Assembly: GCF_000017305.1 (NCBI RefSeq) | Contig: NC_009664.2 | Coordinates: 4,590,001 to 4,622,000 of the forward strand | DNA from: Kineococcus radiotolerans SRS30216 = ATCC BAA-149 | GTDB lineage: Bacteria; Actinomycetota; Actinomycetes; Actinomycetales; Kineococcaceae | Direction: 5' to 3' | DNA length: 32,000 nucleotides | In this document: positions 790 through 31,779 of the stretch, piece by piece | How the letters are laid out: every line of letters begins with the position of its first letter | How positions within the stretch are numbered: the first letter of the stretch is position 1 | Notes under the pieces: model-generated | Told to the model about the DNA's origin: nothing | Database searches by the model: none | What the model saw: the letters and a program-made list of their open reading frames with translations, nothing else | Translations under genes and position numbers: made by a program

Positions 790-867
790 CACCTTCGGTG
801 GTCTCACTCGGTGTGGACATCGCCACGAGCGCGAAGTCGCAGCCAATTGTAGTCACGCCCGTATCGC

Positions 868-885
868 GGGATGACCGTGAGGTTG
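868..885 (+). repeat. GGGATGACC-core intergenic repeat
   Basis: GGGATGACCGTGAGGTTG, preceded by CGCCCGTATCGC. Lies 45 nt past the stop of the minus-strand gene at 931. Confidence 0.9.
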
Positions 886-2348: not shown

Positions 2349-2488
2349 GCTCCCTCCATGTCCGGCACGGAGCCGAGTGTGTCGCTGTTCTTCTCGGCCT
2401 GCTCCTGCACCACTCACCGCGGTCTTCGAGACGTCTGGAGATCGCCATGTCCGCGACGTCGCCAGCCATCGGCGACCGCGCACAACGC

Positions 2489-2506
2489 GGGATGACCGCG
2501 CGTTCG
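2489..2506 (+). repeat. GGGATGACC-core intergenic repeat
   Basis: GCGCACAACGC-GGGATGACCGCGCGTTCG. Lies 28 nt from the stop at 2535 and 140 nt from the sigma start at 2348. Confidence 0.9.
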
Positions 2507-2792: not shown

Positions 2793-2910
2793 GCGGTGAT
2801 CTTTCCGCATCGGCTGCATCCAGACGCCTGCGTCGCTGCGGTTCAGGGCTCAACGAACTCATGGTCATCGGCACGAGCGGACGTGTCTGGCCGTCAGCGG
2901 CCGCCCGTAT

Positions 2911-2930
2911 CGCGCCACGACCGCGAGGTC
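2911..2930 (+). repeat. degenerate copy of the intergenic repeat
   Basis: CGCCCGTAT-CGCGCCACGACCGCGAGGTC. Shares its 5' flank with the copy at 868. A GGTCATCGG partner arm lies upstream at about 2863. Confidence 0.6.
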
Positions 2931-2980
2931 AGCACCGGGTGAGGACCCCGGCCAGCATCCGCCGAGGTGCCTACGAGGGT

Positions 2981-4410: not shown

Positions 4411-4585
4411 GACGATCCTTTGAGAGGCGGCGGTGTGCGGACCCGATGATCGTGCAGGAGCCGCTGCGCCGATGTCGAGGCACGCTCGCTCTCCGGAGAT
4501 ACGGAGGTGATCGTCGTGCTCGGCTTGCATCCGGACATCGGCGAGACTGCAAGATCATCGATGACCGGGACCGCGCCTGGGTCGC

Positions 4586-4603
4586 GGGATGACCGTGAGG
4601 TTC
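4586..4603 (+). repeat. GGGATGACC-core intergenic repeat
   Basis: GGGATGACCGTGAGGTTC. A partial tandem copy CGATGACCGGGACCG lies at 4559-4573 and a GATCATCG arm at 4553-4560. Confidence 0.9.
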
Positions 4604-6085: not shown

Positions 6086-6334
6086 GCACGCAGTGTTACG
6101 TCTCCTAGAAGTCTGTGCAGGCTTTCGCGCGTCTTCGGCTGCGCTGTGCTCGGAGCACTCAAGCGTTCGCGGCGTCAGCTCGTCCCTGCGCCCAGCTCGT
6201 CTCTGGGTGAGGTGCACGTCAGCCGCAGCAGCAGAAGCCACCTGACCCGACCTGGCCTGGCCTGACTCGACGCTGGTGCCTCAACTCCGTGCTGCCTCAG
6301 CGGCCTGGCCGGCGGGGAGAGAAGCACGGATCGC

Positions 6335-6352
6335 GGGATGACCGTGAGGTCT
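6335..6352 (+). repeat. GGGATGACC-core intergenic repeat
   Basis: CGGATCGC-GGGATGACCGTGAGGTCT. Lies 30 nt from the stop at 6383. Confidence 0.9.
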
Positions 6353-6874: not shown

Positions 6875-7038
6875 CGGGTCTCCTCGGTGCGGGCTGCGGT
6901 GGGCGAGCGGTAGGCAGGTTCGCACGCCGGACCTGCTGGGCGCAGCCATTTGCGATCTTGCTGGAGGGTCCGTAGTGGTCGCGCGGTCATCGCCAGGACC
7001 GCGCTGTCGTTGGCCGCTGGCAGCAGCGCGCACAACGC

Positions 7039-7056
7039 GGCATGACCGTGAAGTCG
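7039..7056 (+). repeat. GGGATGACC-core intergenic repeat (GGCATGACC variant)
   Basis: GCGCACAACGC-GGCATGACCGTGAAGTCG. Partner arm CGGTCATCGCC at 6984-6994. Lies 13 nt from the stop at 7070. Confidence 0.9.
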
Positions 7057-7756: not shown

Positions 7757-7897
7757 GGTCTCGACCCTATGCAGAGGACCACTCCGGACGCATGAGGGTC
7801 GTGGGCCAGCGCATGGTGGTGATGACCAGGTGTCAGGTGCGAACCGCAATCGTCTGTCTTCCGAGACGATCGTGAGGTCCTCGACGTCCTGGCCAGC

Positions 7898-7915
7898 GGG
7901 ATGACCGTGAAGTCG
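7898..7915 (+). repeat. GGGATGACC-core intergenic repeat
   Basis: GGGATGACCGTGAAGTCG. Flanked by degenerate copies GACGATCGTGAGGTCC (7865-7880) and GGTACGACCGCGAGGGCG (7944-7961). Confidence 0.9.
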
Positions 7916-10530: not shown

Positions 10531-10631
10531 CCGACAGGGTTGCTCGTTTACGCCCACCAGCACCCTCAGGTGCTGCTCGCTCTTCGTCATGTGCGGACGT
10601 CTCCAGTTCGCCGAGGTCGCGCACTGAGCGC

Positions 10632-10649
10632 GGGATGAACGCGAGGTGT
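10632..10649 (+). repeat. GGGATGACC-core intergenic repeat (GGGATGAAC variant)
   Basis: GGGATGAACGCGAGGTGT. Lies 46 nt from the stop at 10696. Confidence 0.8.
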
Positions 10650-11193: not shown

Positions 11194-11328
11194 CTGGTGA
11201 GTGTCCCGCGTCTGCGCTGGCGGGGAGGCTCGACGCGGGGCTTGGTCCCGCTCCGACCGGGTGCTCGAAACCGCTCGCTCTTCGCCATGACCGCAAGATC
11301 ATCGCCCGGCCAACTGCGCGCGGACGGC

Positions 11329-11346
11329 GGGATGACCGTGACGTCG
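11329..11346 (+). repeat. GGGATGACC-core intergenic repeat
   Basis: CGGACGGC-GGGATGACCGTGACGTCG. Partner arm GATCATCGCC at 11297-11306. Confidence 0.9.
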
Positions 11347-13777: not shown

Positions 13778-13910
13778 ACGCCGGCGGGGGCCACGGCCTC
13801 ACCGCTGGGGGTCATCTCGGATGCGTGCTGAGGTTCCCGCTGAACGTCTATGCCCTTGTTCTGCCGGTGAGGTCGACCGCTCGGTCATCGTCAGGACCGT
13901 GCGACGTCTG

Positions 13911-13928
13911 CGGATGACCGTGCGGTCG
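13911..13928 (+). repeat. GGGATGACC-core intergenic repeat (CGGATGACC variant)
   Basis: CGGATGACCGTGCGGTCG. Partner arm CGGTCATCGTCAG at 13882-13894. Degenerate copies at 13818-13837 and 13891-13908. Confidence 0.85.
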
Positions 13929-14022
13929 TGGCTCGAGGTCCGGTATCAGGAGTTCATGTGGCGGGTGGGCTCTACGCCGGCTGGGGGTCCTGCGGCAGGC
14001 TGAGCGACCGAGGCCGCAGAGC

Positions 14023-14457
14023 GTGGCCCACCATGAAGGCGTGTCCAGCGCCGAGCGTGACCCGTCAAGCAGTCCGCCGCGCTCAGGGGCGCTGCGGAGG
14101 CGTGGTCTTCTTCGCGGATTCGGGGTCGTCGCCGTGATCATCGTGGGTGTCCTGGTGGGTCGTGTCCTGGGCGCCTCGACGCTCAGTACGACGGTAGGGG
14201 AGCTCCTGGTCTGGGGAGCCACCTGTGCTGGGCTCACCCTCGCTGTGATCGTGGGTCGCCTATTGGTTCATCCCTGGTGGGGAGCCGTGCTGGCGTGGGG
14301 GGCGTTCATGGCAGGTGTGGTGCCTCCGCTGTCGGATCAGGACGCCTTGTGGGCGGTTGGGGCGTTCGTGCTCGCTCTGCTGGCTGCGGGCTACGTCGCC
14401 GTCCTGAACTCGGTGGTCTCCGCGTTGGACGAGAGGCGTCGGCGGCGCCTCCGCTGA
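14023..14457 (+). CDS. integral membrane protein, hypothetical
   Basis: 144 aa, GTG start, four hydrophobic helices, high GC3. Confidence 0.6.
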   Translation: MAHHEGVSSAERDPSSSPPRSGALRRRGLLRGFGVVAVIIVGVLVGRVLGASTLSTTVGELLVWGATCAGLTLAVIVGRLLVHPWWGAVLAWGAFMAGVVPPLSDQDALWAVGAFVLALLAAGYVAVLNSVVSALDERRRRRLR

Positions 14458-14555
14458 TGGGGTGGGTCTCTGGGCGAGAAGGAGGCAGGAGCATCCGAGA
14501 CCGCTGGCATCTCCTTCAGAGCGGTTGTCGCCAGCAGCGCAACCGCGCGGACGGC

Positions 14556-14573
14556 GGGATGACCGCGAGGTCG
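14556..14573 (+). repeat. GGGATGACC-core intergenic repeat
   Basis: CGGACGGC-GGGATGACCGCGAGGTCG. Lies 8 nt from the stop at 14582. Confidence 0.9.
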
Positions 14574-14581
14574 CAGGCCGC

Positions 14582-14876
14582 CTACTTCGTCGCTGCCCGG
14601 TCACGATCGTGGTCGTCGAGACGCCCACCCCACGCGAGCAGCAGGGCAAACCCCGAGGAGATCAACGGCAAAGCGAAGTAGATCAGCAGAATCCACGACC
14701 TGCCGGCGACTGCGAAGACGAGCTGGGTGGCGATGACCGTCAACGGAACCGCGATGCGCGCCCAGAAGTTGGCCGTGAACAGCATCGGCCAGGGCGCGAT
14801 GAGGTGCACCATCCAAGGGATGCCGTAGACCGCTATCCAGCCCAGCGCCTGCAGCGGGGACCTCTCGACGAAGGGC
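14582..14876 (-). pseudogene. 3' part of a membrane-protein gene, probably truncated by the IS3-family insertion
   Basis: The annotated ORF starts at ATG 14812. The frame stays open, with no start codon, up to the IS end (…PPFVERSPLQALGWIAVYGIPWMVHLIAPW…). It could instead be an independent 76-aa gene. Confidence 0.45.
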
Positions 14877-14918
14877 GGGTCTGCCCCTACTTCAGTTGAC
14901 CCTCGTCAGTAGGGGCGG

Positions 14919-15791
14919 TCAGGCCGCGTGAGCGGCTTGCAGGAGTGTCTCGTACTCGATGGGTGTCAGTCGACCCAGCGCTTGCTGACGACGGCGGCGG
15001 TGATAGGTCCCCTCGATCCACGAGACGATGGCCAGGCGCAGCTCCTCCCGACTGGCCCAGCGCCGGCGGTTGAGGACGTTCTTCTGCAGCAGGCTGAAGA
15101 ACGACTCCATGGCGGCGTTGTCCGCGCAGGTCCCGACCCGACCCATCGACCCACGCGCTTGCCCTGCCGAAAGAGCGCGAAGGTAGCGGTGGGAACGAAA
15201 TTGGGCTCCGCGGTCCGAGTGGACCACGAGCTCAAGGACATCGGTCCCACCGCGCAGTGCCAGCGCGTTCGACAGGGCTTGGACGGCGAGGTCGGCAGTC
15301 ATGCGGGCATCGATGGAGTAGCCGACGATGCGGTTGGAGCAGGCGTCCTTGACCGCGCAGAGGTAGAGCTTGCCTTCGGCGGTGGGATGTTCGGTGATGT
15401 CGGTTAGCCAGAGGGCGTTCGGCTTCTCAGCGGTGAACTTACGGCGGACGAGGTCGTCGTGCACGGGTGGTCCCGGCCGGCGCCCGGCGCCGCGTCTGCG
15501 GGCGTGGGCTGAGAACAGCTTCTGCAGGCTGCACAAGCGCTGGACGCGGTTGCGCGAGGTCCTGACGCCCTGCTGCTGCAGCTCGTCGGCGATGAAGCGG
15601 TAGCCGAACTCGGGGTCGTCGTGGTGGATGTCGACGGCGGCGTTGAGGAGGTGAGCGTCGTTCCAGTCCCGGTCGGTGACCGGAGCGGCGCGCCACTTGA
15701 AGTAAGCCTGCTTGGAGAAGCCCAGCACCCGACAGGTCACCGCGACGGGGATCCCGTCGCCGGCAAGGTCACGGACCAGCGGGTAGATCAT
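14919..15791 (-). CDS. IS3-family transposase OrfB (DDE/rve integrase core)
   Basis: 290 aa. DDE context LWLTDITE, VHSDRGAQF, CADNAAMESFF. The ATG overlaps the orfA stop (ATGA) in the -1 frame. Confidence 0.9.
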   Translation of the reverse strand: MIYPLVRDLAGDGIPVAVTCRVLGFSKQAYFKWRAAPVTDRDWNDAHLLNAAVDIHHDDPEFGYRFIADELQQQGVRTSRNRVQRLCSLQKLFSAHARRRGAGRRPGPPVHDDLVRRKFTAEKPNALWLTDITEHPTAEGKLYLCAVKDACSNRIVGYSIDARMTADLAVQALSNALALRGGTDVLELVVHSDRGAQFRSHRYLRALSAGQARGSMGRVGTCADNAAMESFFSLLQKNVLNRRRWASREELRLAIVSWIEGTYHRRRRQQALGRLTPIEYETLLQAAHAA

Positions 15792-16096
15792 TTTGGCAAC
15801 GTGTCACGGGCGAAGTACGCCGTCGCCCGCCGCAGGATCTCGTTCTCCTGCTCCAGCTGCTTGGCCCGCTTACGCAGCTCCCGGTTCTCCGCCTCGAGGT
15901 CCACGCCCACGGCAGGCGTGCTGTTGGACGCCGTCTTGCCGTCCTCGCGGTCAGCGATCCTCAGCCAGCGACCCAGGCAGGACTCGGAGATCCCGAAGCT
16001 GCTAGCGATCTTCGCTCGGGTCTGCCCGCCTTGGCGGGCGACGGCGATCACGTCGCGGCGGAACTCGTCGGGGTAGCGCTTGTGCACGGTGCTCAT
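15788..16096 (-). CDS. IS3-family transposase OrfA (HTH)
   Basis: ATG at 16096 preceded by GGAAGG. MSTVHKRYPDEFRRDVIAV...RAKIASSFGISESCLGRWL followed by a leucine-zipper-like LEAENRELRKRAKQLEQENEILRRA. Confidence 0.85.
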   Translation of the reverse strand: MSTVHKRYPDEFRRDVIAVARQGGQTRAKIASSFGISESCLGRWLRIADREDGKTASNSTPAVGVDLEAENRELRKRAKQLEQENEILRRATAYFARDTLPK

Positions 16097-16155
16097 CCTT
16101 CCAGCGAGGACCATGATCCTCACAGGTCGGAGTCAACCAAAGCGGGGGCAGACCC

Positions 16156-16356
16156 GGGAGCCCCCAGCTGCTCCAAGGCGGTGTCGAGCAAGAGGCGCAG
16201 CTGGGTGGGGTCGTGATCGGGGACTGCCGTGGCCAGCTCGCGCACGGCTGGTGAGTCGTAGCCGCGGCTGAGCGCGGTGTTGGCCCATGTGCTCATGTGC
16301 TCGGCCGGCAGGTAGCCGAGCACGGTACGGGCACGGGCGCGCTGGAGAGGATCCAC
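16156..16356 (-). pseudogene. 5' fragment of a cassette gene disrupted by the IS; paralog of 25635..26162
   Basis: VDPLQRARARTVLGYLPAEHMSTWANTALSRGYDSPAVRELA...LEQLGAP aligns with VDPLYRARARAHLGDLPPEQMPDWAAHALARGYDSPALRELA...LDELGAP. The reading frame runs into the IS terminal repeat. Confidence 0.7.
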
Positions 16357-16463
16357 GGATGCAGTGTCGCTAAGGAGGGAAAGCTGGGCTTGCTCTGGGC
16401 GGGTGAGAACGCTGCCGGACTCATTCCTTGCCAGGGCTGCGACGTGATCATCGCCCGTAGGGC

Positions 16464-16481
16464 GGGATGACCGTGACGTCG
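16464..16481 (+). repeat. GGGATGACC-core intergenic repeat
   Basis: GGGATGACCGTGACGTCG. Compact hairpin with GATCATCGCCC at 16446-16456. Lies 19 nt from the stop at 16501. Confidence 0.9.
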
Positions 16482-16500
16482 GTGTGGGCCGTGCGTAGGG

Positions 16501-17262
16501 TCAGGTGGGGAGGTTGACCCCGTCCCTCAGCAGGGCGACCCCGGCGACAGGATCACCAGAGACGTTCACGCTGACGCCGAAGACGTGATCCGCCGCGGTG
16601 GCGCGCCAGGCCATGCGAGTGTCACCAGGATCCATGTATTGGACTCCGAGCACGTTGCCGTTGCGCCACTGCAACGTGGTGAAGTCCGAACTGGAGGGCT
16701 CGCTGGTCGCCGAAGCGGTGGGCGGCTGGGCGATGTCCCCGCCGTAGAGGATCGTCATCCACACCAGTCCCTGGCTGCGGGCCTCATCGAAAGACGTGCC
16801 GTCGGCGTCCACGCCCGGAGGTAGGTAGGCGATGTTCACGCCGTGGACGTCGGCCGCCGGGTCCGCCGGCGGTGCAGGTGGGTTGGCCGCTGAGGGCACC
16901 GGGTGCTCGAAGATGCCGGCGCCTTCGGAGCTGCCGCAGGTGAGGGTGAAGCCGCGTTCCTGCAGCGTCGGGAAGCTGGGGATGGGGATGCCGAGGTGCT
17001 CGGCGACCTCATCGCACGCCAGGGCGCCGCCTACGAGGTCTTGGGTGGTGCTGAGTAGCCCCAGGGGGTTGCCGCGGCGGGCGTACTCCGGGTGGGTCAG
17101 CGCCGCGACGGCGTCCTCTTGAGCGGGCGTCAGGACCAGCGCGGGCTGCTCGCCCTCTTCGGGGGAGGTGGCGGTGGTCGGGGTGTTGCCGCAACTGCAG
17201 AGGGCGTACAGCACGAGGGTCAGGCCGGCGACCCGCCGTGCCGCTCGTGTTCTCCTGCTCAT
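16501..17262 (-). CDS. secreted protein / probable lipoprotein, hypothetical
   Basis: ATG at 17262 preceded by GAGGGGA. Signal-like MSRRTRAARRVAGLTLVLYALCSCGN. 253 aa. Confidence 0.75.
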   Translation of the reverse strand: MSRRTRAARRVAGLTLVLYALCSCGNTPTTATSPEEGEQPALVLTPAQEDAVAALTHPEYARRGNPLGLLSTTQDLVGGALACDEVAEHLGIPIPSFPTLQERGFTLTCGSSEGAGIFEHPVPSAANPPAPPADPAADVHGVNIAYLPPGVDADGTSFDEARSQGLVWMTILYGGDIAQPPTASATSEPSSSDFTTLQWRNGNVLGVQYMDPGDTRMAWRATAADHVFGVSVNVSGDPVAGVALLRDGVNLPT

Positions 17263-17366
17263 GCTGTCCCCTCACTGGTGATCGCGTCGCTGCTGGGACG
17301 CACCAGCAGTCTTGCCGCCATCACGGGCCGGTGTCTCACCGGAGGGGCGATGACCACGCGGACGGC

Positions 17367-17384
17367 GGGATGACCGGTAGATCG
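17367..17384 (+). repeat. GGGATGACC-core intergenic repeat
   Basis: CGGACGGC-GGGATGACCGGTAGATCG. Tandem partial copy GCGATGACCACGCGGACG at 17347-17364. Lies 12 nt from the stop at 17397. Confidence 0.85.
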
Positions 17385-17396
17385 ACATCGTCAGCT

Positions 17397-17801
17397 TCAG
17401 GGCTGCTGCCAGGGTGCGAGGTGGTGGGCATCACCTGGGGCGACAGCTAGCTCCACGCGCAAGCCGTCGGTGAAGACCACGGTCCACACCTGCGCCCAGG
17501 GGTCCAGCCAGACCAGCTCGCTTTTCTGCGGCTTGCGCGGTTCGGAGCTTTCGAGTCGGCCGCCGACCAGCACTGCGCCACGCCAACGCAGATCACCCTC
17601 GTCGCTGATGACCGCACCTGCCGCGCCACCCCACGCCTGGCTGAGCCCATGAGGTGACGGCCCCAGGGACCGGATGCTGGCGTCGAAGACGCCCTCGCCG
17701 TAGAGGCCGCGTTGGCCGCGGCGACGTAGTCGGGGGGCGAGCAAGCCGATGGCGGTGCCGAGGATCGCCATGGCGATGACTGTCCAGATCCAGTGGGGCA
17801 T
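17397..17801 (-). CDS. membrane-anchored hypothetical protein
   Basis: ATG at 17801 preceded by AGGAG. N-terminal TM MPHWIWTVIAMAILGTAIGLLA. 134 aa. Confidence 0.6.
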   Translation of the reverse strand: MPHWIWTVIAMAILGTAIGLLAPRLRRRGQRGLYGEGVFDASIRSLGPSPHGLSQAWGGAAGAVISDEGDLRWRGAVLVGGRLESSEPRKPQKSELVWLDPWAQVWTVVFTDGLRVELAVAPGDAHHLAPWQQP

Positions 17802-17885
17802 GGAGCTCCTGAGTGCGGCGATGGGAGGGGTCTCAGCTCCCAGGTTGCCAGCTCCGCCGAGGCACTGAGCGATCATCCGGAATTC

Positions 17886-17903
17886 GGCATGACCGCGACG
17901 TCG
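17886..17903 (+). repeat. GGGATGACC-core intergenic repeat (GGCATGACC variant)
   Basis: GGCATGACCGCGACGTCG. Partner arm GATCATCCG at 17871-17879. Confidence 0.85.
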
Positions 17904-17929
17904 CCGGTCGTGTACGACCGCCCGGATCG

Positions 17930-17947
17930 CGGTATGACCGTGCGTCG
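17930..17947 (+). repeat. GGGATGACC-core intergenic repeat (GGTATGACC variant)
   Basis: CCGGATCG-CGGTATGACCGTGCGTCG. Second copy in the same gap, 44 nt after the previous one. Confidence 0.8.
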
Positions 17948-17982
17948 CCCATCCCCTTATCCCGGCTGCCTACGCTGGGCCC

Positions 17983-18686
17983 GTGGCTGACCTGCAGATC
18001 GTCGTCCTGCTCTTCCCCCAGGTGACGCAGCTGGACTTCACCGGGCCGCGCAGGTCTTCGACCGCCTCCCCGGCGCCCAAGTGCATCTGGCCTGGCACGA
18101 GACCGCACCGGTGGTCACCGACTGCGGCTGGTCCATCGTGCCCACCACCACCTTGGCTGACTGCCCACCGGCGGACATCCTGTTCGTGCCCGGTGGGGAG
18201 GGCGCCTTCGACCTCTTCGGCGACGACGTCGCCCTGGGCTTCCTGCGCCGCCAGGCCGCCTCCGCGCGGTGGGTCACCTCGGTGTGCACCGGCTCCTTCG
18301 CCCTCGCCGCGGCGGGCCTGCTGACCGGCAAACGGGCCACCAGCCACTGGGCCTCGTTGCCGATGCTGGCGGAGTTCGGCGTCGTGCCGGTGGCTGAGCG
18401 CGTCGTGGTCGATGGTGCGGTGGTCACCGGTGCCAAGATCACCTCCGGCATCGACTTCGCGCTGCACCTGGCGGCGTTGGAGTGCGGTGAGGATCTGGCC
18501 CGGTGGGTGCAGCTGGCCTTGGAGTACGACCCCGCTCCGCCCTTCAACCATGGCTCCCCACGGACCGCTGATCCGGAGACGGTGCGTCGGGGGCGGAAGC
18601 GGGCCCGAGCCAGTCGTTTGCTGCGGGTGCAGCAGGCAGCTGGTCGCCTTGCCCAGGACGCGGGTCAACGCGGCGTCGCGCCGTGA
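17983..18686 (+). pseudogene. DJ-1/PfpI-family (GATase1-like) gene with a -1 frameshift near codon 22
   Basis: N-terminus VADLQIVVLLFPQVTQLDFTGP (frame of 17983) continues as AQVFDRLPGAQVHLAWHETAPVVTD... only in the frame of ORF 18081..18686. The junction is at 18046-18050 (GGGCCGCGCAG). Nucleophile-elbow-like VTSVCTGSFALAAAGLL. Confidence 0.8.
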
Positions 18687-18749
18687 GACGAGCGGTCGTC
18701 TTGGCTCGACTCCTGACAGGTGGGTGACGGCTGCGACGTTTTGGTCAGC

Positions 18750-18767
18750 GGGATGACCGGGCGTCTG
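18750..18767 (+). repeat. GGGATGACC-core intergenic repeat
   Basis: GGGATGACCGGGCGTCTG. Lies 63 nt after the stop of the + strand gene. Confidence 0.85.
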
Positions 18768-18922
18768 ACGGGTGGGCTTAGGCACGGTGACACTGGGAAT
18801 GCTGCTGCCCAGCGACGGCTTGTAGAGGGTGGTTGATCTGCTGCATGTCCCCGGGCCTCACCTTCAGCCGCTTCGAGCGGCCTTTCGCCGAGAGGCGACT
18901 GCCGGATCGACCATCGCGCCAC

Positions 18923-18950
18923 GGCCGCCGGGCTACTCAGCCCGGCGGCC
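18923..18950. terminator. perfect 12-bp stem hairpin between convergent genes
   Basis: GGCCGCCGGGCT-actc-AGCCCGGCGGCC. No U/T tract on either side, so at best an I-shaped or bidirectional terminator. Confidence 0.45.
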
Positions 18951-18988
18951 GTCGTGCGTCCTGAGTGGGTCAGTGCCGCGCTGAACGT

Positions 18989-19006
18989 GGGATGGCCGCG
19001 CAATCT
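18989..19006 (+). repeat. GGGATGACC-core intergenic repeat (GGGATGGCC variant)
   Basis: GGGATGGCCGCGCAATCT (compare GGGATGACCGCGCGTTCG at 2489). Lies 11 nt from the stop at 19018. Confidence 0.7.
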
Positions 19007-19017
19007 CCAAATCCGTG

Positions 19018-19767
19018 TCAGCTTTCGTCGACGTCGAAGCGGACAAGGACGACGTAGTCGTCGCTGGACAGGTGCGGGTAGTAGTTCCGCAAGCCGGGCA
19101 GCACGCTGGCCGCGTCGGCGAAGCCGTCCTCTCGCGCTTCCTCGTCGCTGATCTCGGCGACAGTCTTGGCGGTGGTGGAGGTGATCCTGCCCGCCAGGGT
19201 GACCTCGTCGTCGACGTCACCGGCGTTGAGGTCACCGGCGGTGTCGGTCCTGGCGGGCTCGAAGACCAGCAGGGCTGGACCGACCTGCACGGGATCGTCG
19301 AGGCGCAGGGTGGCGCGCTTGCTGCCGTCGCGGACCGCGGGTAGGTGGGAGGCGCGGAAACGCAGGCGTTGAACCTGCTGCGCCTGCCAGCGGTAGGTGT
19401 GTGGCAGCAGCTCCTCAGCTCCTACTACCTGGGGACGGTCAGGGGTGGGGACGACGACGGAGATGGTCGGGTAGTAGTCGGCCAGGACTTGCCGGTCTCG
19501 TCCGCACGGGGCGAGCACCCCGCGGCCCTCGTCGCCGACGGCGACGATGAGGCGGGGGGCTTGCGCGCCGGCGGTGCGGGCGGTGGCGAGGGCGACGAGC
19601 TCGGCGCAGGGGCCGCCGGTGAAGTGGTAGAGGTTCAGCCCGACGTGGATGCGGTCGTGCTCGTCGAGGACGGCGGCGGCGACGGTGTGGATGTTGCCGT
19701 CGCCGTGCTCGCGGGCGGCGTCGATGAGCGCAGGTACGGCGTCTGGGCCTACCGGGTCGGTGATCAC
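19018..19767 (-). CDS. cytidine-deaminase-like domain fused to an ASCH-like domain
   Basis: HFTGGPCAELVAL (CAE zinc/catalytic motif) and APCGRDRQVL (PCGxCRQ-like, second Cys replaced by Asp). C-terminal half ASCH-like (LPAVRDGSKRATLR...EEAREDGFADAASVLPGLRNYYP). GTG 19767 chosen as start. Confidence 0.7.
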   Translation of the reverse strand: MITDPVGPDAVPALIDAAREHGDGNIHTVAAAVLDEHDRIHVGLNLYHFTGGPCAELVALATARTAGAQAPRLIVAVGDEGRGVLAPCGRDRQVLADYYPTISVVVPTPDRPQVVGAEELLPHTYRWQAQQVQRLRFRASHLPAVRDGSKRATLRLDDPVQVGPALLVFEPARTDTAGDLNAGDVDDEVTLAGRITSTTAKTVAEISDEEAREDGFADAASVLPGLRNYYPHLSSDDYVVLVRFDVDES

Positions 19768-19840
19768 GGGGGCAGCGTAGGGGCGGGTCGCGCAGGTCGT
19801 GATGTTCCTTGCCAGGCGCCAGCGACAGCGCTCACAACGC

Positions 19841-19858
19841 GGGATGACCGTGAGGTCG
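19841..19858 (+). repeat. GGGATGACC-core intergenic repeat
   Basis: CTCACAACGC-GGGATGACCGTGAGGTCG. Degenerate copy CCGATGACCTTGCCTTAG at 19884-19901. Confidence 0.9.
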
Positions 19859-19963
19859 TGGCTACCGTGATCCCGCCGATCGCCCGATGACCTTGCCTTA
19901 GGTGAACCGCCACTGCTGATCCCTTGTGCGGGTTCTCTAGAGCGGGGACAAGTGGTGGTGGGC

Positions 19964-20359
19964 TCAGTCCACGCGGGTGTGCAGGTGCCAGCCGTGGGTG
20001 CGGCACTGCTGCACCAGGTCAGCAGCTTCCTGCAGCGCAGCGAGCTGCGGGGGGCTGTCGGCGGCCAAGGTCTGAGCATGCAGCAGGTCATGCGCCAGCT
20101 GATCGAGGTCCTCGGGGCGGTAGCGCCGGTCGTACCAGGGGTGGAACTGGGCAAGCTCTGCTAGTCCGGCGGCGTAGCGCTCATCCGGGGAGTGGCTTCG
20201 GATGAACTCTTCGAAGGCGTCTTGGGTGTCGGCGTTGTCGGCCTTGACCTGTCGGTCGGCATGCAGGCGGTGGGCGCGTCGCTCCGCACGGGTCAGGTCC
20301 TTCAGTGGACGGGTGTGCTGCTCCCACGCCTCGGTGGTGGCGACGAGCGTGATGGCCAT
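19964..20359 (-). CDS. hypothetical protein
   Basis: 131 aa, ATG at 20359 with GGAG upstream, predicted helical. No family recognised. Confidence 0.7.
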   Translation of the reverse strand: MAITLVATTEAWEQHTRPLKDLTRAERRAHRLHADRQVKADNADTQDAFEEFIRSHSPDERYAAGLAELAQFHPWYDRRYRPEDLDQLAHDLLHAQTLAADSPPQLAALQEAADLVQQCRTHGWHLHTRVD

Positions 20360-20471
20360 GGTCAGTGCTCCAGGTCCTCGAGGATCGCGTCAGGGGCTGA
20401 GGAGCCCACCACAGCACATCGTCGGCTGGCAGGTGATCGTTCCCGCCCCCGTCAGTGATCACGCGGATGGC

Positions 20472-20489
20472 GGGATGACCGTGAAGTCG
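20472..20489 (+). repeat. GGGATGACC-core intergenic repeat
   Basis: GGGATGACCGTGAAGTCG. Lies 17 nt from the stop at 20507. Confidence 0.9.
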
Positions 20490-20506
20490 GTCAAGCCGCT
20501 CGTCGT

Positions 20507-20941
20507 TCAGAGCTGCGGCAGGGTGTAGCGCGCGATCCGCTGCTGGCCCCACCCGAAGCGGCTCTCGGTGATCCAGTCCTCGAGGTGGCTGGCCAGGCGC
20601 TGTGCGCACTCCTGGGCGGTGAAGGGGGAGTGCTGCTCGCCGTCGGTATCGCCGCCGTGCCACGACGGTGAGCTCAACAGGTCTTGGAACGTCTCGCCGG
20701 CGGCGGTGATGGTGATCCAGACGTCGCCGGGGTCGCCGTCGATGCCCCAGTGGAGAGTGAGCTGCTGCAGCTCTTCCTCGCGCAGCAGCGAGGTCACGAC
20801 GGGCAGAGCCACGGTGTTCTTGAGGGTGTGCAGGTGCTCGTCGTCGGCGTCGGTGATGTCGCCCGGCCGGGCATGGATGGGTCCGCTGGAGGCGCCGAAG
20901 TGGAGAGTCAGCTTGCTTGAGTAGGCCGATTCTTCGTCCAT
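20507..20941 (-). CDS. hypothetical protein
   Basis: ATG at 20941, 144 aa, acidic, high GC3. Confidence 0.65.
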   Translation of the reverse strand: MDEESAYSSKLTLHFGASSGPIHARPGDITDADDEHLHTLKNTVALPVVTSLLREEELQQLTLHWGIDGDPGDVWITITAAGETFQDLLSSPSWHGGDTDGEQHSPFTAQECAQRLASHLEDWITESRFGWGQQRIARYTLPQL

Positions 20942-20980
20942 AGTCAGCACGCTATGGGGCTGGGACTTCGCACCCAAGGC

Positions 20981-20998
20981 GGGATGACCGTGAAGTCG
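20981..20998 (+). repeat. GGGATGACC-core intergenic repeat
   Basis: GGGATGACCGTGAAGTCG. Lies 11 nt from the stop at 21010 and 39 nt from the start at 20941. Confidence 0.9.
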
Positions 20999-21009
20999 AG
21001 GTGTTCGGG

Positions 21010-21633: not shown

Positions 21634-21859
21634 GGTCGCGGTACCTGAGTCGTGATCACCTGGCGAGTCTTCCAGGAGGGTGAGGTGCGTCGAGGCCTCT
21701 GCATGGACCATCCCCGAGACCACCACACCGTGCCGCGGGGGATGGAGGGCTTGAGCGGTGTGGAGGGCTCGGGCGGATGATCGCCCGGCTTTCATCTCGC
21801 GCCTGGACACCTGCGGATGGGTGAAGCCGTCAGCCGCCGACGGTAACGGCGCACACCGC

Positions 21860-21877
21860 GGGATGACCGTGAAGTGC
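21860..21877 (+). repeat. GGGATGACC-core intergenic repeat
   Basis: GCGCACACCGC-GGGATGACCGTGAAGTGC. Confidence 0.9.
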
Positions 21878-21953
21878 TGGGGTCTTTGGTCCAAGGGTGT
21901 AACGACCCAGGCAGATGACGGCGCCGGTGCGCTGGGTGTAGCACGATGCAGGC

Positions 21954-22244
21954 GTGACGTGGGTGATCTGGGTGTTGTTGGGAGGGGCCCTTTCTGTGCT
22001 GTCGGTGAGGGCTGATGCGAAGAGGTCGCCAGGCCGTCGCCTCTCCTGGTGGGGCCAGCGCCCGCGTGGGCGAGGCTGGTTCGCTGCCCTCGACTTCGGC
22101 GCTGTCTTCTGCGTCATCATGGCTGGTACCTCCGCAGCAGAGACCGCGACGCCGACATGGGTGGTGGCTGCTGCAGTCGGCGCCGCCATCCTGCTGCCCT
22201 ACCTAGCCGGAGTGGGCCTGCACAATCGCTCGTTGAGCCGCTGA
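21954..22244 (+). CDS. small membrane protein, hypothetical
   Basis: 96 aa, GTG start, three hydrophobic segments. Confidence 0.5.
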   Translation: MTWVIWVLLGGALSVLSVRADAKRSPGRRLSWWGQRPRGRGWFAALDFGAVFCVIMAGTSAAETATPTWVVAAAVGAAILLPYLAGVGLHNRSLSR

Positions 22245-22292
22245 CACCAGCATTGCTGGCCTGCGTGCCCTCAGCGCCTGCGCAAGGTCTGC

Positions 22293-22310
22293 GGGATGAC
22301 GGTGAGTACG
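22293..22310 (+). repeat. GGGATGACC-core intergenic repeat (GGGATGACG variant)
   Basis: GGGATGACGGTGAGTACG. Directly abuts the stop codon at 22311-22313. Confidence 0.8.
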
Positions 22311-23510: not shown

Positions 23511-23687
23511 GATGATCGCCCTCTTCTCGGTGTCCCCTCGATCGTGGCGCGGTGACGGGCTTGCTGTCGCGGTGGTTCCTGTCGGCGGCATCGGCGACGG
23601 GTGTGATCTTAGGTCGGTGACCTGTAGAACCCTCCGCAACCCAGCAGATGAGTGAAGCCGCCAGCCCCCAACGACAGCGCACGATGC

Positions 23688-23705
23688 GGGATGACCGTGA
23701 GGTTG
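23688..23705 (+). repeat. GGGATGACC-core intergenic repeat
   Basis: GGGATGACCGTGAGGTTG. Lies 50 nt from the stop at 23756. Confidence 0.9.
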
Positions 23706-23755
23706 TGGAGCTGTCCCAATCGCGCCCGGATCGCGCACGTTTCGCACCTGCAGGC

Positions 23756-25419: not shown

Positions 25420-25554
25420 GCCCTCTAGTGTCCGTAGGGGCCTGGATGGTTACAGGGGTGGGCCACCAATCTGGCGTGGAGGCGCCCGTCCCTGGTGCAC
25501 CCGCTGCTCGGCGCCACCCTGATGCCGCTGGCCACCAGCGACCGCCCGGACCGC

Positions 25555-25624
25555 GGGATGACCGTGCGCTCTCCCACCGCGGGATGACCGTGCGCCCTCG
25601 CACCGCGGGATGACTGCACACTCA
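25555..25624 (+). repeat. three tandem copies of the intergenic repeat (26-nt period)
   Basis: ACCGC-GGGATGACCGTGCGCTCTCCC / ACCGC-GGGATGACCGTGCGCCCTCGC / ACCGC-GGGATGACTGCACACTCA, with cores at 25555, 25581 and 25607. Ends 10 nt from the stop at 25635. Confidence 0.9.
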
Positions 25625-25634
25625 CGGCTGAAGG

Positions 25635-26162: not shown

Positions 26163-26254
26163 GGTCTCAGTGTCGCCGAGCCGGCAGGTGCGGGGAGGTC
26201 CTTCTGGGGAGTCGGTGACGCTGCAGCGGTGGGAGCGTCACGTCACACCACCGC

Positions 26255-26272
26255 GGGATGACTGGAAGCTCG
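26255..26272 (+). repeat. GGGATGACC-core intergenic repeat (GGGATGACT variant)
   Basis: CACCACCGC-GGGATGACTGGAAGCTCG, in a divergent intergenic gap. Confidence 0.8.
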
Positions 26273-26773: not shown

Positions 26774-26807
26774 CCCATCCTAATCCGTCTCCATCCGTCT
26801 CCATCCG

Positions 26808-27363: not shown

Positions 27364-27443
27364 TGCGGGGTTGCCCGGTGGGAGATGGTCGTCTGCTTGC
27401 GTCGTGTTGGCGCTGTCCTTGAGGCCCTGATCGCGCACAACGC

Positions 27444-27461
27444 GGGATGACCGGACGGTTC
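27444..27461 (+). repeat. GGGATGACC-core intergenic repeat
   Basis: GCGCACAACGC-GGGATGACCGGACGGTTC. Confidence 0.9.
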
Positions 27462-28080: not shown

Positions 28081-28296
28081 GGGTGGTGTCTACCTTGTGG
28101 GCGGGTCGGGGGCGCCCCGACGTCACACGTACGGCGGCAAGATCAGCCAGTGTCGGCCTGCGCGTCTGCTGACCGGGCGTCTTTCGCGAGCTACCGCATC
28201 TCAGCGACGTCCGGGTGATCCACGGGTTCCGCGACCACTGGGTCCTTAGCAGCTGAGTGAAGTCGCCCCCCCCGCCGGCGACAGTGCGCACAACGG

Positions 28297-28314
28297 GGGA
28301 TGACCGCGACGTCA
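28297..28314 (+). repeat. GGGATGACC-core intergenic repeat
   Basis: GCGCACAACGG-GGGATGACCGCGACGTCA. Lies 9 nt from the stop at 28324. Degenerate copies at 28166-28183 and 28213-28230. Confidence 0.9.
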
Positions 28315-28323
28315 CAGGTGTGG

Positions 28324-28896: not shown

Positions 28897-28992
28897 GGTG
28901 CGACCCTAGGACGGCGTGACCGAGACCCCTAGGATCACTCGCTCTTTGGCACGAGCGCGACGTCGCGACCCGTCGCTGACGGACCGGATCGC

Positions 28993-29010
28993 GGGATGAC
29001 CGGGCGTTCT
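28993..29010 (+). repeat. GGGATGACC-core intergenic repeat
   Basis: CCGGATCGC-GGGATGACCGGGCGTTCT. Lies 19 nt from the stop at 29030. Confidence 0.9.
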
Positions 29011-29611: not shown

Positions 29612-29658
29612 GGCTTGAGCATGGCCCTGATCATCTTCACCCGTCGCGCCACCATTGC

Positions 29659-29676
29659 GGGATGACCGTGAAGTCG
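29659..29676 (+). repeat. GGGATGACC-core intergenic repeat
   Basis: GGGATGACCGTGAAGTCG. GATCATC arm at 29629-29635. Confidence 0.9.
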
Positions 29677-30401: not shown

Positions 30402-30461
30402 ACCACGCGGCCATCGACAGGTCAGGACGTTCAGGGCCGGCCATGATCGCGCGCTGAGTGC

Positions 30462-30479
30462 GGGATGACCGGATGTTGG
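30462..30479 (+). repeat. GGGATGACC-core intergenic repeat
   Basis: GGGATGACCGGATGTTGG. Lies 60 nt after the stop at 30401. Confidence 0.9.
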
Positions 30480-30875: not shown

Positions 30876-30949
30876 CGGCGTGCGCGTGGCCCACGCGGGC
30901 ATCGGCGAGACCGTGACGTCCCGGGCGGCGGCGAAAGCGCGCACAACGC

Positions 30950-30967
30950 GGGATGACCGGACATTCC
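30950..30967 (+). repeat. GGGATGACC-core intergenic repeat
   Basis: GCGCACAACGC-GGGATGACCGGACATTCC. Degenerate copy GCGAGACCGTGACGTCC at 30905-30921. Confidence 0.9.
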
Positions 30968-31701: not shown

Positions 31702-31761
31702 GACATGCTCCCTGCGTGAGGAGCTGTCGCATCACCGGTCACCGGAACCCGCCCAAATTGC

Positions 31762-31779
31762 GGGATGACCGTGAACTAG
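31762..31779 (+). repeat. GGGATGACC-core intergenic repeat
   Basis: GGGATGACCGTGAACTAG. Lies 60 nt after the stop at 31701. Confidence 0.9.

What the first reader, a model, noticed from the sequence alone, without database searches (positions are those of the whole stretch)
16446..16481. The repeat is one arm of an imperfect hairpin with a recurrent unpaired base or bases next to ATGA
Many copies have an upstream partner arm 3-45 nt away. Examples: 16446-16456 GATCATCGCCC with 16460-16472 GGGCGGGATGACC; 11297-11306 GATCATCGCC with 11326-11337 GGCGGGATGACC; 6984-6994 CGGTCATCGCC with 7037-7048 GCGGCATGACCG; 13882-13894 CGGTCATCGTCAG with 13908-13920 CTGCGGATGACCG; 17871-17879 GATCATCCG with 17885-17894 CGGCATGACC. 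Folding these by eye pairs TCAT with ATGA. In four of the five it also pairs (C)GCC/CCG with GGC(G)/CGG, leaving 1-2 nt (GG or C) unpaired just 5' of ATGA; at 13882/13908 that position is a 2-nt internal mismatch instead. Only the right arm is strongly conserved in sequence. The left arm and the loop (3 to about 45 nt) vary. A structure with conserved extrahelical bases and one sequence-conserved arm is how attC sites and REP/RAYT substrates are recognised as folded single strands.
Basis: partly seen in the sequence, partly recalled or inferred. Interest (0 to 1): 0.7.

Follow-up and report, generated by a model that had tools for sequence, protein, structure and literature searches.

The report
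Integron-like gene cassette sites in Kineococcus
The "hairpin arm" is a 32-base, one-directional DNA site that separates about 36 small gene cassettes in Kineococcus radiotolerans; related bacteria share these cassettes in different neighbourhoods that break exactly at the site, which suggests an integron-like gene-shuffling system in a phylum thought to lack integrons.

Summary
Pairing of the conserved arm with upstream DNA is no better than in shuffled or random high-GC sequence. Only 5 of 33 copies fold that way as DNA.

The repeat is a ~32-nt asymmetric site, A.CGC.C..A.CGCG|GGATGACCGTGAGGTCG. There are 36 copies in the 32 kb, all on the + strand, whichever way the neighbouring genes point. 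The window comes from Kineococcus radiotolerans SRS30216, and the site is specific to the genus Kineococcus.

Comparison with 35 blocks from other Kineococcus genomes found 300-950 nt modules shared at 80-96% identity in unrelated contexts. Their ends fall on the site cores. The left arm travels with the left cassette and everything from GGATGACC onward travels with the right cassette.

A Xer-like tyrosine recombinase lies inside such arrays in several Kineococcus species. In five non-Kineococcus loci (Cellulomonas, Motilibacter, Jatrophihabitans, a Nocardioidaceae MAG) its homologues are surrounded by related sites, GCGG(C/G)ATGA, predominantly co-oriented.

Best reading: double-strand recombination sites of an integron-like cassette system. 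No recombinase is in the window, no close homologue was found for K. radiotolerans, and the mechanism is inferred.

The parts
854..885 (+). site copy (core GGATGACC at 869)
   Evidence: weight-matrix score 37.7
2475..2506 (+). site copy (core at 2490)
   Evidence: score 38.4
2900..2931 (+). degenerate site copy (CCACGACC at 2915)
   Evidence: score 14.3
4572..4603 (+). site copy (core at 4587)
   Evidence: score 31.8
6321..6352 (+). site copy (core at 6336)
   Evidence: score 33.8
7025..7056 (+). site copy (GCATGACC at 7040)
   Evidence: score 38.4
7884..7915 (+). site copy (core at 7899)
   Evidence: score 31.5
10618..10649 (+). site copy (GGATGAAC at 10633)
   Evidence: score 22.7
11270..11301 (+). 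degenerate site copy (CCATGACC at 11285); forms a 45-nt mini-cassette with the next site
   Evidence: score 15.0; spacing statistics
11315..11346 (+). site copy (core at 11330)
   Evidence: score 34.9
13897..13928 (+). site copy (core at 13912), with an inverted core-like sequence 22 nt upstream
   Evidence: score 14.5; hairpin z -3.7
14542..14573 (+). site copy (core at 14557)
   Evidence: score 37.2
   Evidence: score 35.1; sequence
17353..17384 (+). site copy (core at 17368)
   Evidence: score 31.7
17872..17903 (+). site copy (GCATGACC at 17887)
   Evidence: score 24.0
17917..17948 (+). site copy (GTATGACC at 17932)
   Evidence: score 26.9
18736..18767 (+). site copy (core at 18751); left boundary of a cassette shared with Kineococcus sp. 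SYSU DK003
   Evidence: score 18.6; alignment
18975..19006 (+). site copy (GGATGGCC at 18990)
   Evidence: score 16.8
19827..19858 (+). site copy (core at 19842)
   Evidence: score 42.9
19870..19901 (+). degenerate site copy (CGATGACC at 19885)
   Evidence: score 15.4
20458..20489 (+). site copy (core at 20473); left boundary of a cassette shared with L114
   Evidence: score 39.8
20967..20998 (+). site copy (core at 20982); right boundary of the same cassette
   Evidence: score 36.5
21846..21877 (+). site copy (core at 21861)
   Evidence: score 36.8
22279..22310 (+). site copy (GGATGACG at 22294)
   Evidence: score 18.5
23674..23705 (+). site copy (core at 23689)
   Evidence: score 37.1
25541..25624 (+). 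three back-to-back site copies (cores at 25556, 25582, 25608; 26-nt period)
   Evidence: scores 37.0, 27.2, 18.8; tandem repeat
26241..26272 (+). site copy (GGATGACT at 26256)
   Evidence: score 14.2
27430..27461 (+). site copy (core at 27445)
   Evidence: score 35.5
28283..28314 (+). site copy (core at 28298)
   Evidence: score 30.2
28979..29010 (+). site copy (core at 28994)
   Evidence: score 32.3
29645..29676 (+). site copy (core at 29660)
   Evidence: score 35.6
30448..30479 (+). site copy (core at 30463)
   Evidence: score 23.4
30936..30967 (+). site copy (core at 30951)
   Evidence: score 36.0
31748..31779 (+). site copy (core at 31763)
   Evidence: score 35.5
2863..2870 (-). inverted core-like sequence (CGATGACC) 45 nt left of the degenerate site at 2915
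   Evidence: - strand score 10.4
   Evidence: - strand score 10.9
   Evidence: - strand score 8.9
20473..20981 (-). example single-gene cassette (gene 20507-20977 on the - strand), 81% identical to a cassette of Kineococcus sp. SYSU DK001 (L114 4504-5031) in a different context
18751..18962 (-). example short cassette (23-codon ORF plus strong hairpin), 86% identical to L036, with unrelated flanks
14919..16123 (-). IS3-family insertion inside one cassette (not part of the system)
   Evidence: Pfam rve and HTH_Tnp_1; paralogue comparison

Best explanation
The repeat is a ~32-bp, directional, double-strand recombination site that bounds mobile gene cassettes. The 32-kb window is part of a long cassette array in the Kineococcus radiotolerans chromosome.

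The site reads [variable left arm A.CGC.C..A.C][GCG | GGATGAC C][G(T/C)GAGGTCG]. Strand exchange takes place at or next to the invariant, non-palindromic GGATGAC(C). This block is flanked by a short inner dyad, CGCG ... CG(T/C)G. Because the central block is asymmetric, sites in one array must point the same way. Two directly repeated sites would then excise the DNA between them as a circle carrying one hybrid site, and such a circle could integrate at any other site. This would give the pattern seen: one or a few genes per interval, genes in either orientation with their own 5' regions, and the same cassette in different neighbourhoods in different genomes.

The most likely enzyme is a Xer-like tyrosine recombinase (about 308 aa). 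It sits inside such arrays in other Kineococcus species, and its homologues in other Actinomycetota are surrounded by related GCGG(C/G)ATGA sites.

Shown: the site, its polarity, the position of cassette boundaries and junction, and the co-occurrence with the recombinase. Inferred: excision and integration, the identity of the enzyme, and double-strand rather than folded single-strand substrates.
For: - Polarity: 36 copies on + and none on -. Real genes lie on both strands: AraC, DJ-1, a kinase-like protein and an ABM monooxygenase on +, most others on -. Across all arrays, 91 genes are antisense and 59 sense to the site.
- Cassette-like spacing: median 704 nt; 70 of 153 intervals hold one predicted gene.
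- Clustering: sites form arrays with copy-free flanks, as in L130 and L116.
- Gene content resembles integron cassettes: GNAT, TetR, methyltransferases, APH, glyoxalase, immunity and toxin-antitoxin genes.
- Module boundaries: the window and 35 Kineococcus blocks share 300-950 nt modules at 80-96% identity in unrelated contexts. 36 of 84 left ends and 18 of 82 right ends fall on a core, against 1.5 and 1.8 expected; the maxima in 2000 randomisations were 6 and 7.
- Junction: sequences show unrelated DNA on one side of the core and homologous DNA on the other. Positions up to -4 are linked to the left flank and positions from 0 onward to the right flank (33 and 12 pairs).
- Recombinase: it has Phage_integrase and SAM-like domains and XerD is its closest solved relative. 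It occurs in 4 of 35 array blocks chosen only by the motif, plus K. endophyticus, and is always antisense to the site sense.
- Other genera: in five non-Kineococcus loci, CGG[GC]ATGA is mostly on the strand opposite the recombinase (my rough tally: about 23 against roughly 4 expected by base composition). A shared CACAACGCGG(C/G)ATG stretch links the Kineococcus and Nocardioidaceae sites; a Cellulomonas copy differs at two positions (CTCACCGCGGCATG).
- Composition: the window is about 70% GC against 74.2% for the genome (PMC2587704).
Against: - No recombinase gene lies in the window.
- No K. radiotolerans protein is among the 120 best homologues (at least 73% identity) of the array recombinase.
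- The recombinase family is more widespread than the exact Kineococcus site. It could be a selfish element that merely lands in arrays. In Kineococcus and Cellulomonas it sits on a unit that is itself flanked by sites.
- In Jatrophihabitans the sites occur in both orientations around the gene.
- The site has only a 4-bp inner dyad, not the two clear inverted binding arms of classical tyrosine-recombinase core sites.
- The junction mapping rests on few pairs (12 and 33).
- No excised circle, empty site or closely related strain pair differing by a single cassette was observed.
Confidence: 0.65

Rival explanations
1. Short selfish or structural intergenic repeat (REP- or MITE-like) that spreads on its own. 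Under this reading the cassette mosaicism results from homologous or short-homology recombination between the many copies, not from a dedicated site-specific recombinase.
For: High copy number in one genus and an extragenic position. No recombinase in the window and no close homologue on record for K. radiotolerans. Back-to-back copies could arise by slippage.
Against: There is no palindrome, no conserved GTAG and no stable fold. Copies are strictly co-oriented regardless of gene strand. They cluster in arrays with sharp ends. Junctions fall within a few bases of a 12-nt invariant block, which is too short for efficient RecA-type exchange. Related sites co-occur with one recombinase family in other genera.
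Confidence: 0.15
2. One reading: the site is one arm of an imperfect hairpin, with extrahelical bases next to ATGA, that is recognised as folded single-stranded DNA, as with attC and IntI or REP and RAYT.
For: Three of the five quoted examples fold as described, one of them strongly (13912, z -3.7). TCAT is enriched upstream (9 of 33 against about 3.3 expected). Inverted core-like sequences 41-80 nt upstream are enriched (18 against about 7 in 170 copies).
Against: 28 of 33 copies do not pair ATGA with an upstream TCAT. Arm-to-upstream pairing energy equals that of shuffled and random controls. Folding z-scores equal those of random segments on both strands. No compensatory changes were seen. 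The associated recombinase aligns to XerD without a large insertion and scores 53 bits against a 265-bit cut-off on the integron-integrase model.
Confidence: 0.05
3. A regulatory signal read on DNA or RNA (terminator, operator, promoter or processing site) that happens to lie between genes.
For: - strand gene stops lie close to the right edge of the site (9-60 nt in many window cases). A GACC-GUGA-GGUC mini-hairpin with a GNRA-type loop can be drawn at +4..+15 (read directly from the sequence).
Against: The orientation does not follow gene strand. There is no Rfam match and no fold beyond chance. The mini-hairpin partner positions +12 and +13 vary without compensation. A regulatory signal does not explain why homology between genomes breaks exactly at the core.
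Confidence: 0.07
4. A relic of protein-coding sequence (a conserved N- or C-terminal peptide, as in orphan toxin/immunity modules), or solitary CRISPR-like repeats.
For: Conservation in the left arm has a 3-nt period (-15, -12, -9, -6, -3). One - strand frame reads R-P-H-G-H-P-A-(L/I/V)-(R/C)-A. From memory, the core resembles the 3' part of type I-E CRISPR repeats. A WapI immunity gene is present.
Against: That frame has stops inside or right next to several copies, and there is no similarity beyond the motif. The putative CRISPR-type stem does not covary (-10/-4 are G/C, C/C or G/G). There is no repeat-spacer periodicity and there are no cas genes in the window.
Confidence: 0.03

Closest known systems
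Integrons, especially sedentary chromosomal integrons (IntI integrase, attI, attC-bounded cassettes)
   Same: Long arrays of co-oriented recombination sites spaced about 0.4-1.1 kb apart. Mostly one gene per interval. Accessory gene content (acetyltransferases, methyltransferases, toxin-antitoxin and immunity genes). The same cassette occurs in different contexts with boundaries at the site. Most of the conserved site lies at one end of the cassette. A tyrosine recombinase is associated. IS110-family elements sit next to sites.
   Different: The site is about 32 bp and not a 55-140 nt imperfect palindrome, with no R''/L''/L'/R' boxes, no GTTRRRY and no fold beyond chance. The recombinase is Xer-like without an integron-type insertion (53 bits against a 265-bit cut-off). 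About 40% of genes lie in the other orientation, and cassettes have 5' regions of their own. Each genome has several arrays. The recombinase sits inside arrays on a site-flanked unit. The host phylum was reported to lack complete integrons (PMC4889954).
Xer/dif-type core sites and pdif modules of Acinetobacter plasmids
   Same: Short double-strand sites for Xer-family tyrosine recombinases flank accessory-gene modules that turn up in different contexts. An invariant central region is flanked by arms of unequal conservation.
   Different: From background knowledge, pdif sites are 28 bp with two clear 11-bp inverted arms, alternate in orientation around modules, and use the housekeeping XerC/XerD. 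Here the sites are all direct, the dyad is only CGCG-N7-CG(T/C)G, and the candidate enzyme scores far below the XerC and XerD equivalog cut-offs (118 against 335 and 116 against 330).
Shufflon sfx sites and the Rci recombinase (plasmid R64)
   Same: From background knowledge, an asymmetric tyrosine-recombinase site in which only the core and one arm are conserved, present in many copies in one locus.
   Different: sfx sites are inverted and drive inversions within one gene's 3' end. Here the sites are direct and bound whole gene cassettes.
REP/BIME elements and RAYT transposases
   Same: Abundant short extragenic repeats restricted to a lineage.
   Different: No palindromic stem, no GTAG, no RAYT seen in about 300 kb of array DNA. 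The copies are co-oriented, and cassettes are exchanged at the repeat.

Membership tests
Integron (attC / IntI) | attC is an imperfect palindrome (R''-L''...L'-R') that folds as a hairpin with extrahelical bases | tested here: not met
   Pairing energy equals the controls. Fold z-scores are -0.35 and -0.63 against -0.24 for random segments. 5 of 33 copies pair ATGA with TCAT. No covariation.
Integron (attC / IntI) | Crossover in a conserved R' box, GTTRRRY | tested here: not met
   The junction maps to GCG|GGATGACC. GTTRRRY is not conserved on either strand.
Integron (attC / IntI) | IntI-type integrase (tyrosine recombinase with the extra I2 domain) next to the array | tested here: not met
   There is no recombinase in the window. 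The array-associated recombinase of related species scores 53 bits against the 265-bit cut-off of the integron-integrase model. It aligns over residues 41-290 to XerD residues 27-282 with no large insertion.
Integron (attC / IntI) | Co-oriented sites separating mobile, mostly single-gene cassettes | tested here: met
   36 sites on + and none on -. Spacing and gene counts. Shared modules end at cores.
Integron (attC / IntI) | attI site and Pc promoter at the integrase-proximal end | not tested
   Neither end of the array is in the window. A site lies 46-85 nt upstream of the recombinase start in three non-Kineococcus loci, but no conserved attI-like sequence aligned.
REP / RAYT | Imperfect palindrome forming a stem-loop | tested here: not met
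REP / RAYT | Conserved GTAG-type tetranucleotide beside the stem | tested here: not met
   No such conserved tetranucleotide in the -80..+47 profile. The GTAG at 16457-16460 is private to one copy.
REP / RAYT | RAYT (Y1 transposase) gene in the genome | not testable with these tools
   The whole genome was not available. No Y1 transposase appeared among the 25 most frequently matched families from 150 ORFs of array loci.
Tyrosine-recombinase double-strand core site (dif/lox type) | Invariant asymmetric central (overlap) region where exchange occurs | tested here: met
   Among the 25 exact GGATGACC copies, -3..-1 are 92-96% conserved and +8 is invariant. Across all 192 copies, pairwise identity at 0..+7 is 0.78-0.99. 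The junction maps to the left edge of this block.
Tyrosine-recombinase double-strand core site (dif/lox type) | Two inverted recombinase-binding arms flanking a 6-8 bp central region | tested here: inconclusive
   Only the inner four positions are symmetric (CGCG - GGATGAC - CG(T/C)G). The outer arms are unrelated (frequencies).
Tyrosine-recombinase double-strand core site (dif/lox type) | Cognate recombinase acting on the site | not testable with these tools
   Only co-occurrence is shown.
pdif modules | Sites alternate in orientation around modules and match the XerC/XerD dif consensus | tested here: not met
   All copies are direct. The core is GC-rich and, from my memory of dif sequences, unlike them.
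CRISPR array / solitary repeats | Regular repeat-spacer period, repeat stem with covariation, cas genes | tested here: not met
   Spacing ranges from 26 to 4694 nt. The stem positions do not covary. No cas domains were found.

The most novel reading that the evidence does not exclude
Actinomycetota carry a previously undescribed cassette-capture system that parallels integrons. It would use a conserved Xer-like tyrosine recombinase acting on short (~30 bp) directional double-strand sites with core GCGG(C/G)ATGA(C)C. It builds chromosomal arrays of tens of promoter-bearing gene cassettes and exchanges them between species and genera. K. radiotolerans holds one of the largest arrays.
Probability: 0.4. 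Interest if true: 0.9.

Novelty: new variant of a known kind. Interest (0 to 1): 0.78.

Why it matters
Integrons are the textbook system for capturing and reshuffling genes as cassettes. A survey of bacterial genomes found no complete integron in Actinobacteria (PMC4889954). If the Kineococcus arrays are real recombination-driven cassette arrays, three things follow.

- The cassette strategy has arisen, or diversified, with a different site architecture: a short double-strand site instead of a folded attC.
- Actinomycetota, the main source of antibiotics and resistance genes, would have a gene-exchange route not seen before. APH- and GNAT-type genes are among the cassettes.
- A compact directional ~30-bp site with its recombinase could serve as a tool for high-GC bacteria.

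The finding also explains why this part of the K. radiotolerans chromosome is lower in GC and full of small unrelated genes. The genome paper does not mention the feature.

Tried and rejected
- Protein-coding reading of the motif. The frame giving RPHGHPA(L/I/V)(R/C)A has stops in or beside several copies, and nothing is conserved beyond the motif.
- CRISPR I-E-like stem in CGCG-CACAA-CGCG. The -10/-4 positions do not covary.
- Rfam at gathering thresholds: no hit.
- Plasmid origin. The second half of the window (14000-32000) matches plasmids only through IS3 and one ASCH gene, and a 71-nt site query finds nothing.
- An upstream direct repeat ATGACCGCGACGTC as part of the element. It is present about 45 nt upstream in roughly 20% of copies. 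I reinterpret it as an adjacent degenerate site forming a very short cassette.
- Search for a recombinase at apparent array ends. L028 and L116 gave only an MFS transporter and an aldehyde dehydrogenase.
- A conserved attI-like sequence upstream of all recombinase genes: no convincing alignment.
- Defining the IS110 insertion point from four copies. The alignment is too noisy for more than a hint.
- Extending the window. Three look-ups failed because of wrong start codons. One added 2.4 kb on the left with three more sites. No long K. radiotolerans contig was returned.
- Literature searches for the motif, Kineococcus repeats, or integron-like arrays in Actinomycetota found nothing relevant. 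This does not prove novelty.
Full report
**1. The observation**

The window is about 70% GC. Exact protein matches identify it as part of the Kineococcus radiotolerans SRS30216 chromosome (ABS03894.1, ABS03873.1, ABS03872.1).

The repeat they belong to is real and strongly strand-biased. GGATGACC occurs 25 times on the + strand and never on the - strand. With one mismatch there are 84 matches against 34.5 expected, and no shuffle reached that number.

Anchoring on GGATGACC, conservation runs from -15 to +16, giving A.CGC.C..A.CGCGGGATGACCGTGAGGTCG. A weight matrix finds 36 + strand copies above 12 bits and none on the - strand.

**2. The hairpin claim**

- TCAT lies within 57 nt upstream in 9 of 33 copies. 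The two flank controls give 4 of 33 each, and about 3.3 are expected.
- In minimum-energy folds of -70..+12, ATGA pairs with an upstream TCAT in 2 of 33 copies with RNA parameters and 5 of 33 with DNA parameters.
- The best duplex between the arm (-6..+10) and the upstream 62 nt averages -16.3 kcal/mol for 192 copies from this window and other Kineococcus loci. Shuffled upstream sequence gives -16.1 and random window segments give -16.1.
- Fold z-scores of -80..+20 average -0.35 (top strand) and -0.63 (bottom strand), against -0.24 for random 100-nt segments.
- Mutual information within the core reflects subfamilies, not base pairing.

In about 10% of 170 copies, an inverted and degenerate copy of the core lies 41-80 nt upstream (18 occurrences against about 7 expected). 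In this window these are at 2863-2870, 6985-6992 and 13883-13890. The hairpin is therefore not a property of the family.

**3. Surroundings**

Pfam and NCBIfam place real genes on both strands.

- On the - strand: two ECF sigma factors, a SpoIIE phosphatase, a tyrosine phosphatase, an anthrone oxygenase, NmrA, a WapI immunity protein, an ASCH protein and an IS3 element.
- On the + strand: an AraC/cupin regulator, DJ-1/PfpI, a nucleoside-kinase-like protein and an ABM monooxygenase.

The site never flips with the genes. A codon-usage gene map puts one site in almost every intergenic gap. The stops of - strand genes lie just right of the site, and the stops of + strand genes lie 60-100 nt to its left.

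Across the window and 35 Kineococcus blocks:

- 91 genes are antisense and 59 sense to the site.
- Median site-to-site spacing is 704 nt (interquartile range 425-1134).
- 70 of 153 intervals hold one predicted gene.
- 19 intervals are shorter than 60 nt.

**4. Distribution**

An exact pattern scan of one genome per species found the motif concentrated in Kineococcus. Hits elsewhere were single, as expected by chance.

Within Kineococcus blocks the copies are clustered and, with few exceptions, co-oriented; L052 has 12 in 8 kb. Arrays also have ends. In K. endophyticus, nine sites lie within 7.8 kb and are followed by 8.7 kb with none. Rfam has no matching family, and plasmid collections do not contain the site.

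**5. Cassette behaviour (the key result)**

An all-against-all BLAST of the window and the Kineococcus blocks found dozens of 300-950 nt modules shared at 80-96% identity between different genomes and contexts. The module ends coincide with site cores.

- 36 of 84 left ends lie within -20..+5 of a core.
- 18 of 82 right ends lie within -5..+25 of a core.
- The random expectations are 1.5 and 1.8, with maxima of 6 and 7 in 2000 randomisations.

The junction sequences show the pattern directly. At a module's left core, the DNA to the left is unrelated between the two homologous modules, and the DNA from about +9 rightward is homologous. At its right core the reverse holds. Window examples are 20470-20996, which matches L114 4504-5031, and 18746-18960, which matches L036.

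A linkage analysis over all copy pairs shows that positions up to -4 follow the left flank (33 pairs). Positions from 0 onward, including core variants such as CCATGACC and GCAAGACC, follow the right flank (12 pairs). Exchange therefore happens at about GCG|GGATGACC.

The very short intervals can be read as empty cassettes or as slippage products. Examples are the 26-nt period at 25550-25614, the roughly 45-nt intervals, and a 34-nt unit repeated 17 times in Motilibacter.

**6. A candidate enzyme**

A motif search of six-frame translations found a tyrosine recombinase in K. vitellinus block L087.

- It has Phage_integrase (2.7e-24) and SAM-like N-terminal domains.
- It scores 118 and 116 bits on the XerC and XerD models, far below their cut-offs of 335 and 330.
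- It scores 53 bits on the integron-integrase model, against a cut-off of 265.
- Its closest solved relative is E. coli XerD, aligned without a large insertion. No integron integrase passes 1e-5.

The gene occurs in 4 of 35 blocks that were selected only by the DNA motif, and also in K. endophyticus. It is always antisense to the site sense.

Homologues at 73-92% identity occur in several other Kineococcus species and in Cellulomonas, Motilibacter, Jatrophihabitans, Actinotalea, Propionicimonas and Nocardioidaceae. Around five non-Kineococcus homologues, related sites occur mostly on the strand opposite the gene.

- Cellulomonas: six copies of GCGGCATGA(C/G)C on one side of the gene, the nearest 84 nt upstream of the start codon.
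- Motilibacter: several copies plus tandem arrays.
- Nocardioidaceae MAG: five copies, all on the opposite strand, one of them 85 nt upstream of the start.
- Jatrophihabitans: a 45-nt conserved site, in both orientations around the gene.
- Uncultured Cellulomonas (L134): three copies on the opposite strand and two on the same strand.

My rough tally is about 23 sites on the opposite strand against roughly 4 expected from base composition, and 5 on the same strand.

The stretch CACAACGCGG(C/G)ATG is shared by the Kineococcus and Nocardioidaceae sites. A Cellulomonas copy is related but differs at two positions (CTCACCGCGGCATG). The neighbouring genes in these loci are again small accessory, toxin-antitoxin and immunity genes.

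**7. Proposed mechanism**

The invariant block -3..+8 contains a non-palindromic GGATGAC flanked by a short inner dyad, CGCG ... CG(T/C)G (frequencies). This is the layout of a tyrosine-recombinase core site with a 7-bp overlap region. Such a region must be identical in both partners, and its asymmetry sets direction. That would explain both the invariance of the block and the uniform polarity of the arrays. The mapped junction lies at the left edge of this block.

I infer that two direct sites excise the interval between them as a circle, and that circles integrate at any site. This step is inferred, not shown.

**8. Caveats**

- No recombinase lies in the window.
- No K. radiotolerans protein appears among the 120 best homologues. 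This array may now be orphaned, or served by a divergent enzyme.
- In Kineococcus and Cellulomonas the recombinase sits on a unit that is itself flanked by sites. It could be a passenger element rather than the enzyme of the system.
- The outer arms show no dyad symmetry.
- The junction statistics rest on few pairs.
- No circle or empty site was observed.

**9. Comparison with known systems**

The system works like a sedentary chromosomal integron but fails the defining tests for one: no attC fold, no GTTRRRY box and no IntI-type integrase. It differs from REP/RAYT elements (no palindrome, no GTAG). It differs from pdif modules, which alternate in orientation and use the housekeeping XerCD. 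It differs from shufflons, whose sites are inverted.

A survey of bacterial genomes found no complete integron in Actinobacteria (PMC4889954). The K. radiotolerans genome paper does not mention repeats, integrons or cassettes (PMC2587704). Searches of the held literature found no description of the site or of such arrays.

**10. Verdict**

The repeat itself is a real, directional, genus-specific site that bounds exchangeable gene cassettes. It is most likely a double-strand recombination site of an integron-like system in Actinomycetota served by a Xer-like recombinase. My confidence in the cassette-site reading is about 0.65, and in the identity of the enzyme about 0.4.

Noticed in passing
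window 14919-16123 (and 16127-16370 compared with 25968-26176): An IS3-family element (rve and HTH_Tnp_1 domains) interrupts a cassette gene. That gene is a 71%-identical paralogue of gene 25635-26162. Short-read assemblies of the same strain break at this insertion.
   Followed up: partly
window 25550-25614; L100 3984-4041, 4335-4399, 5532-5584; L132 14980-15560: Back-to-back site copies. The window has a 26-nt period repeated 2.5 times, Kineococcus sp. DHX-1 has similar triplets, and Motilibacter peucedani has a 34-nt unit repeated 17 times. They could be empty cassettes or slippage products.
   Followed up: partly
window 18746-18962: A short cassette with no long gene, 86% identical to one in Kineococcus sp. 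SYSU DK003. On the - strand it carries a 23-codon ORF (MQQINHPLQAVAGQQHSQCHRA), a nearly invariant 54-nt stretch over its start, and a strong GC hairpin at about 18920-18960. It could encode a small protein or a small RNA.
   Followed up: no
window 4774-4865: A near-perfect tandem repeat, GGCTCACTGGGGGA repeated 6.6 times (98% matches), lies between a site and the 3' end of the SpoIIE phosphatase gene.
   Followed up: no
L129 2002-3240 and 6143-7213; L134 4930-6165; L135 10900-11898: IS110-family transposase genes lie a few hundred bases from a site in the Cellulomonas and Nocardioidaceae arrays. In two copies the IS sequence seems to begin inside the core (GCGGC|TGTTTG...). This recalls the IS1111 elements that target integron attC sites.
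   Followed up: partly
window 10696-11193; L132 9175-9819; L133 8001-8360; L135 673-1104; L129 11055-11578: Orphan immunity genes (WapI, SMI1_KNR4, Imm8, Imm5-like) and toxin-antitoxin pairs recur as cassettes. In Cellulomonas a PhdYeFM/ParE pair sits directly after the recombinase, inside the same site-flanked unit.
   Followed up: no
window, site positions -15 to -3 of every copy: Conservation in the left arm has a 3-nt period (-15, -12, -9, -6, -3). No reading frame is open through the copies, and the periodicity remains unexplained.
   Followed up: partly
window 1-32000: GC content is about 70% here against 74.2% for the genome. GC skew is positive on the + strand throughout, although most genes are on the - strand.
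   Followed up: no
L133 8738, 9811 (+) and 11249, 6532 (-): In Jatrophihabitans the site is a well conserved 45-mer (TCGGCAGATCAGTGCGTCGGAAACGATCACGTCAGCGGCATGAC). It occurs in inverted orientation on the two sides of the recombinase gene, like the ends of a small transposon. This differs from the direct arrays in the other genera.
   Followed up: no
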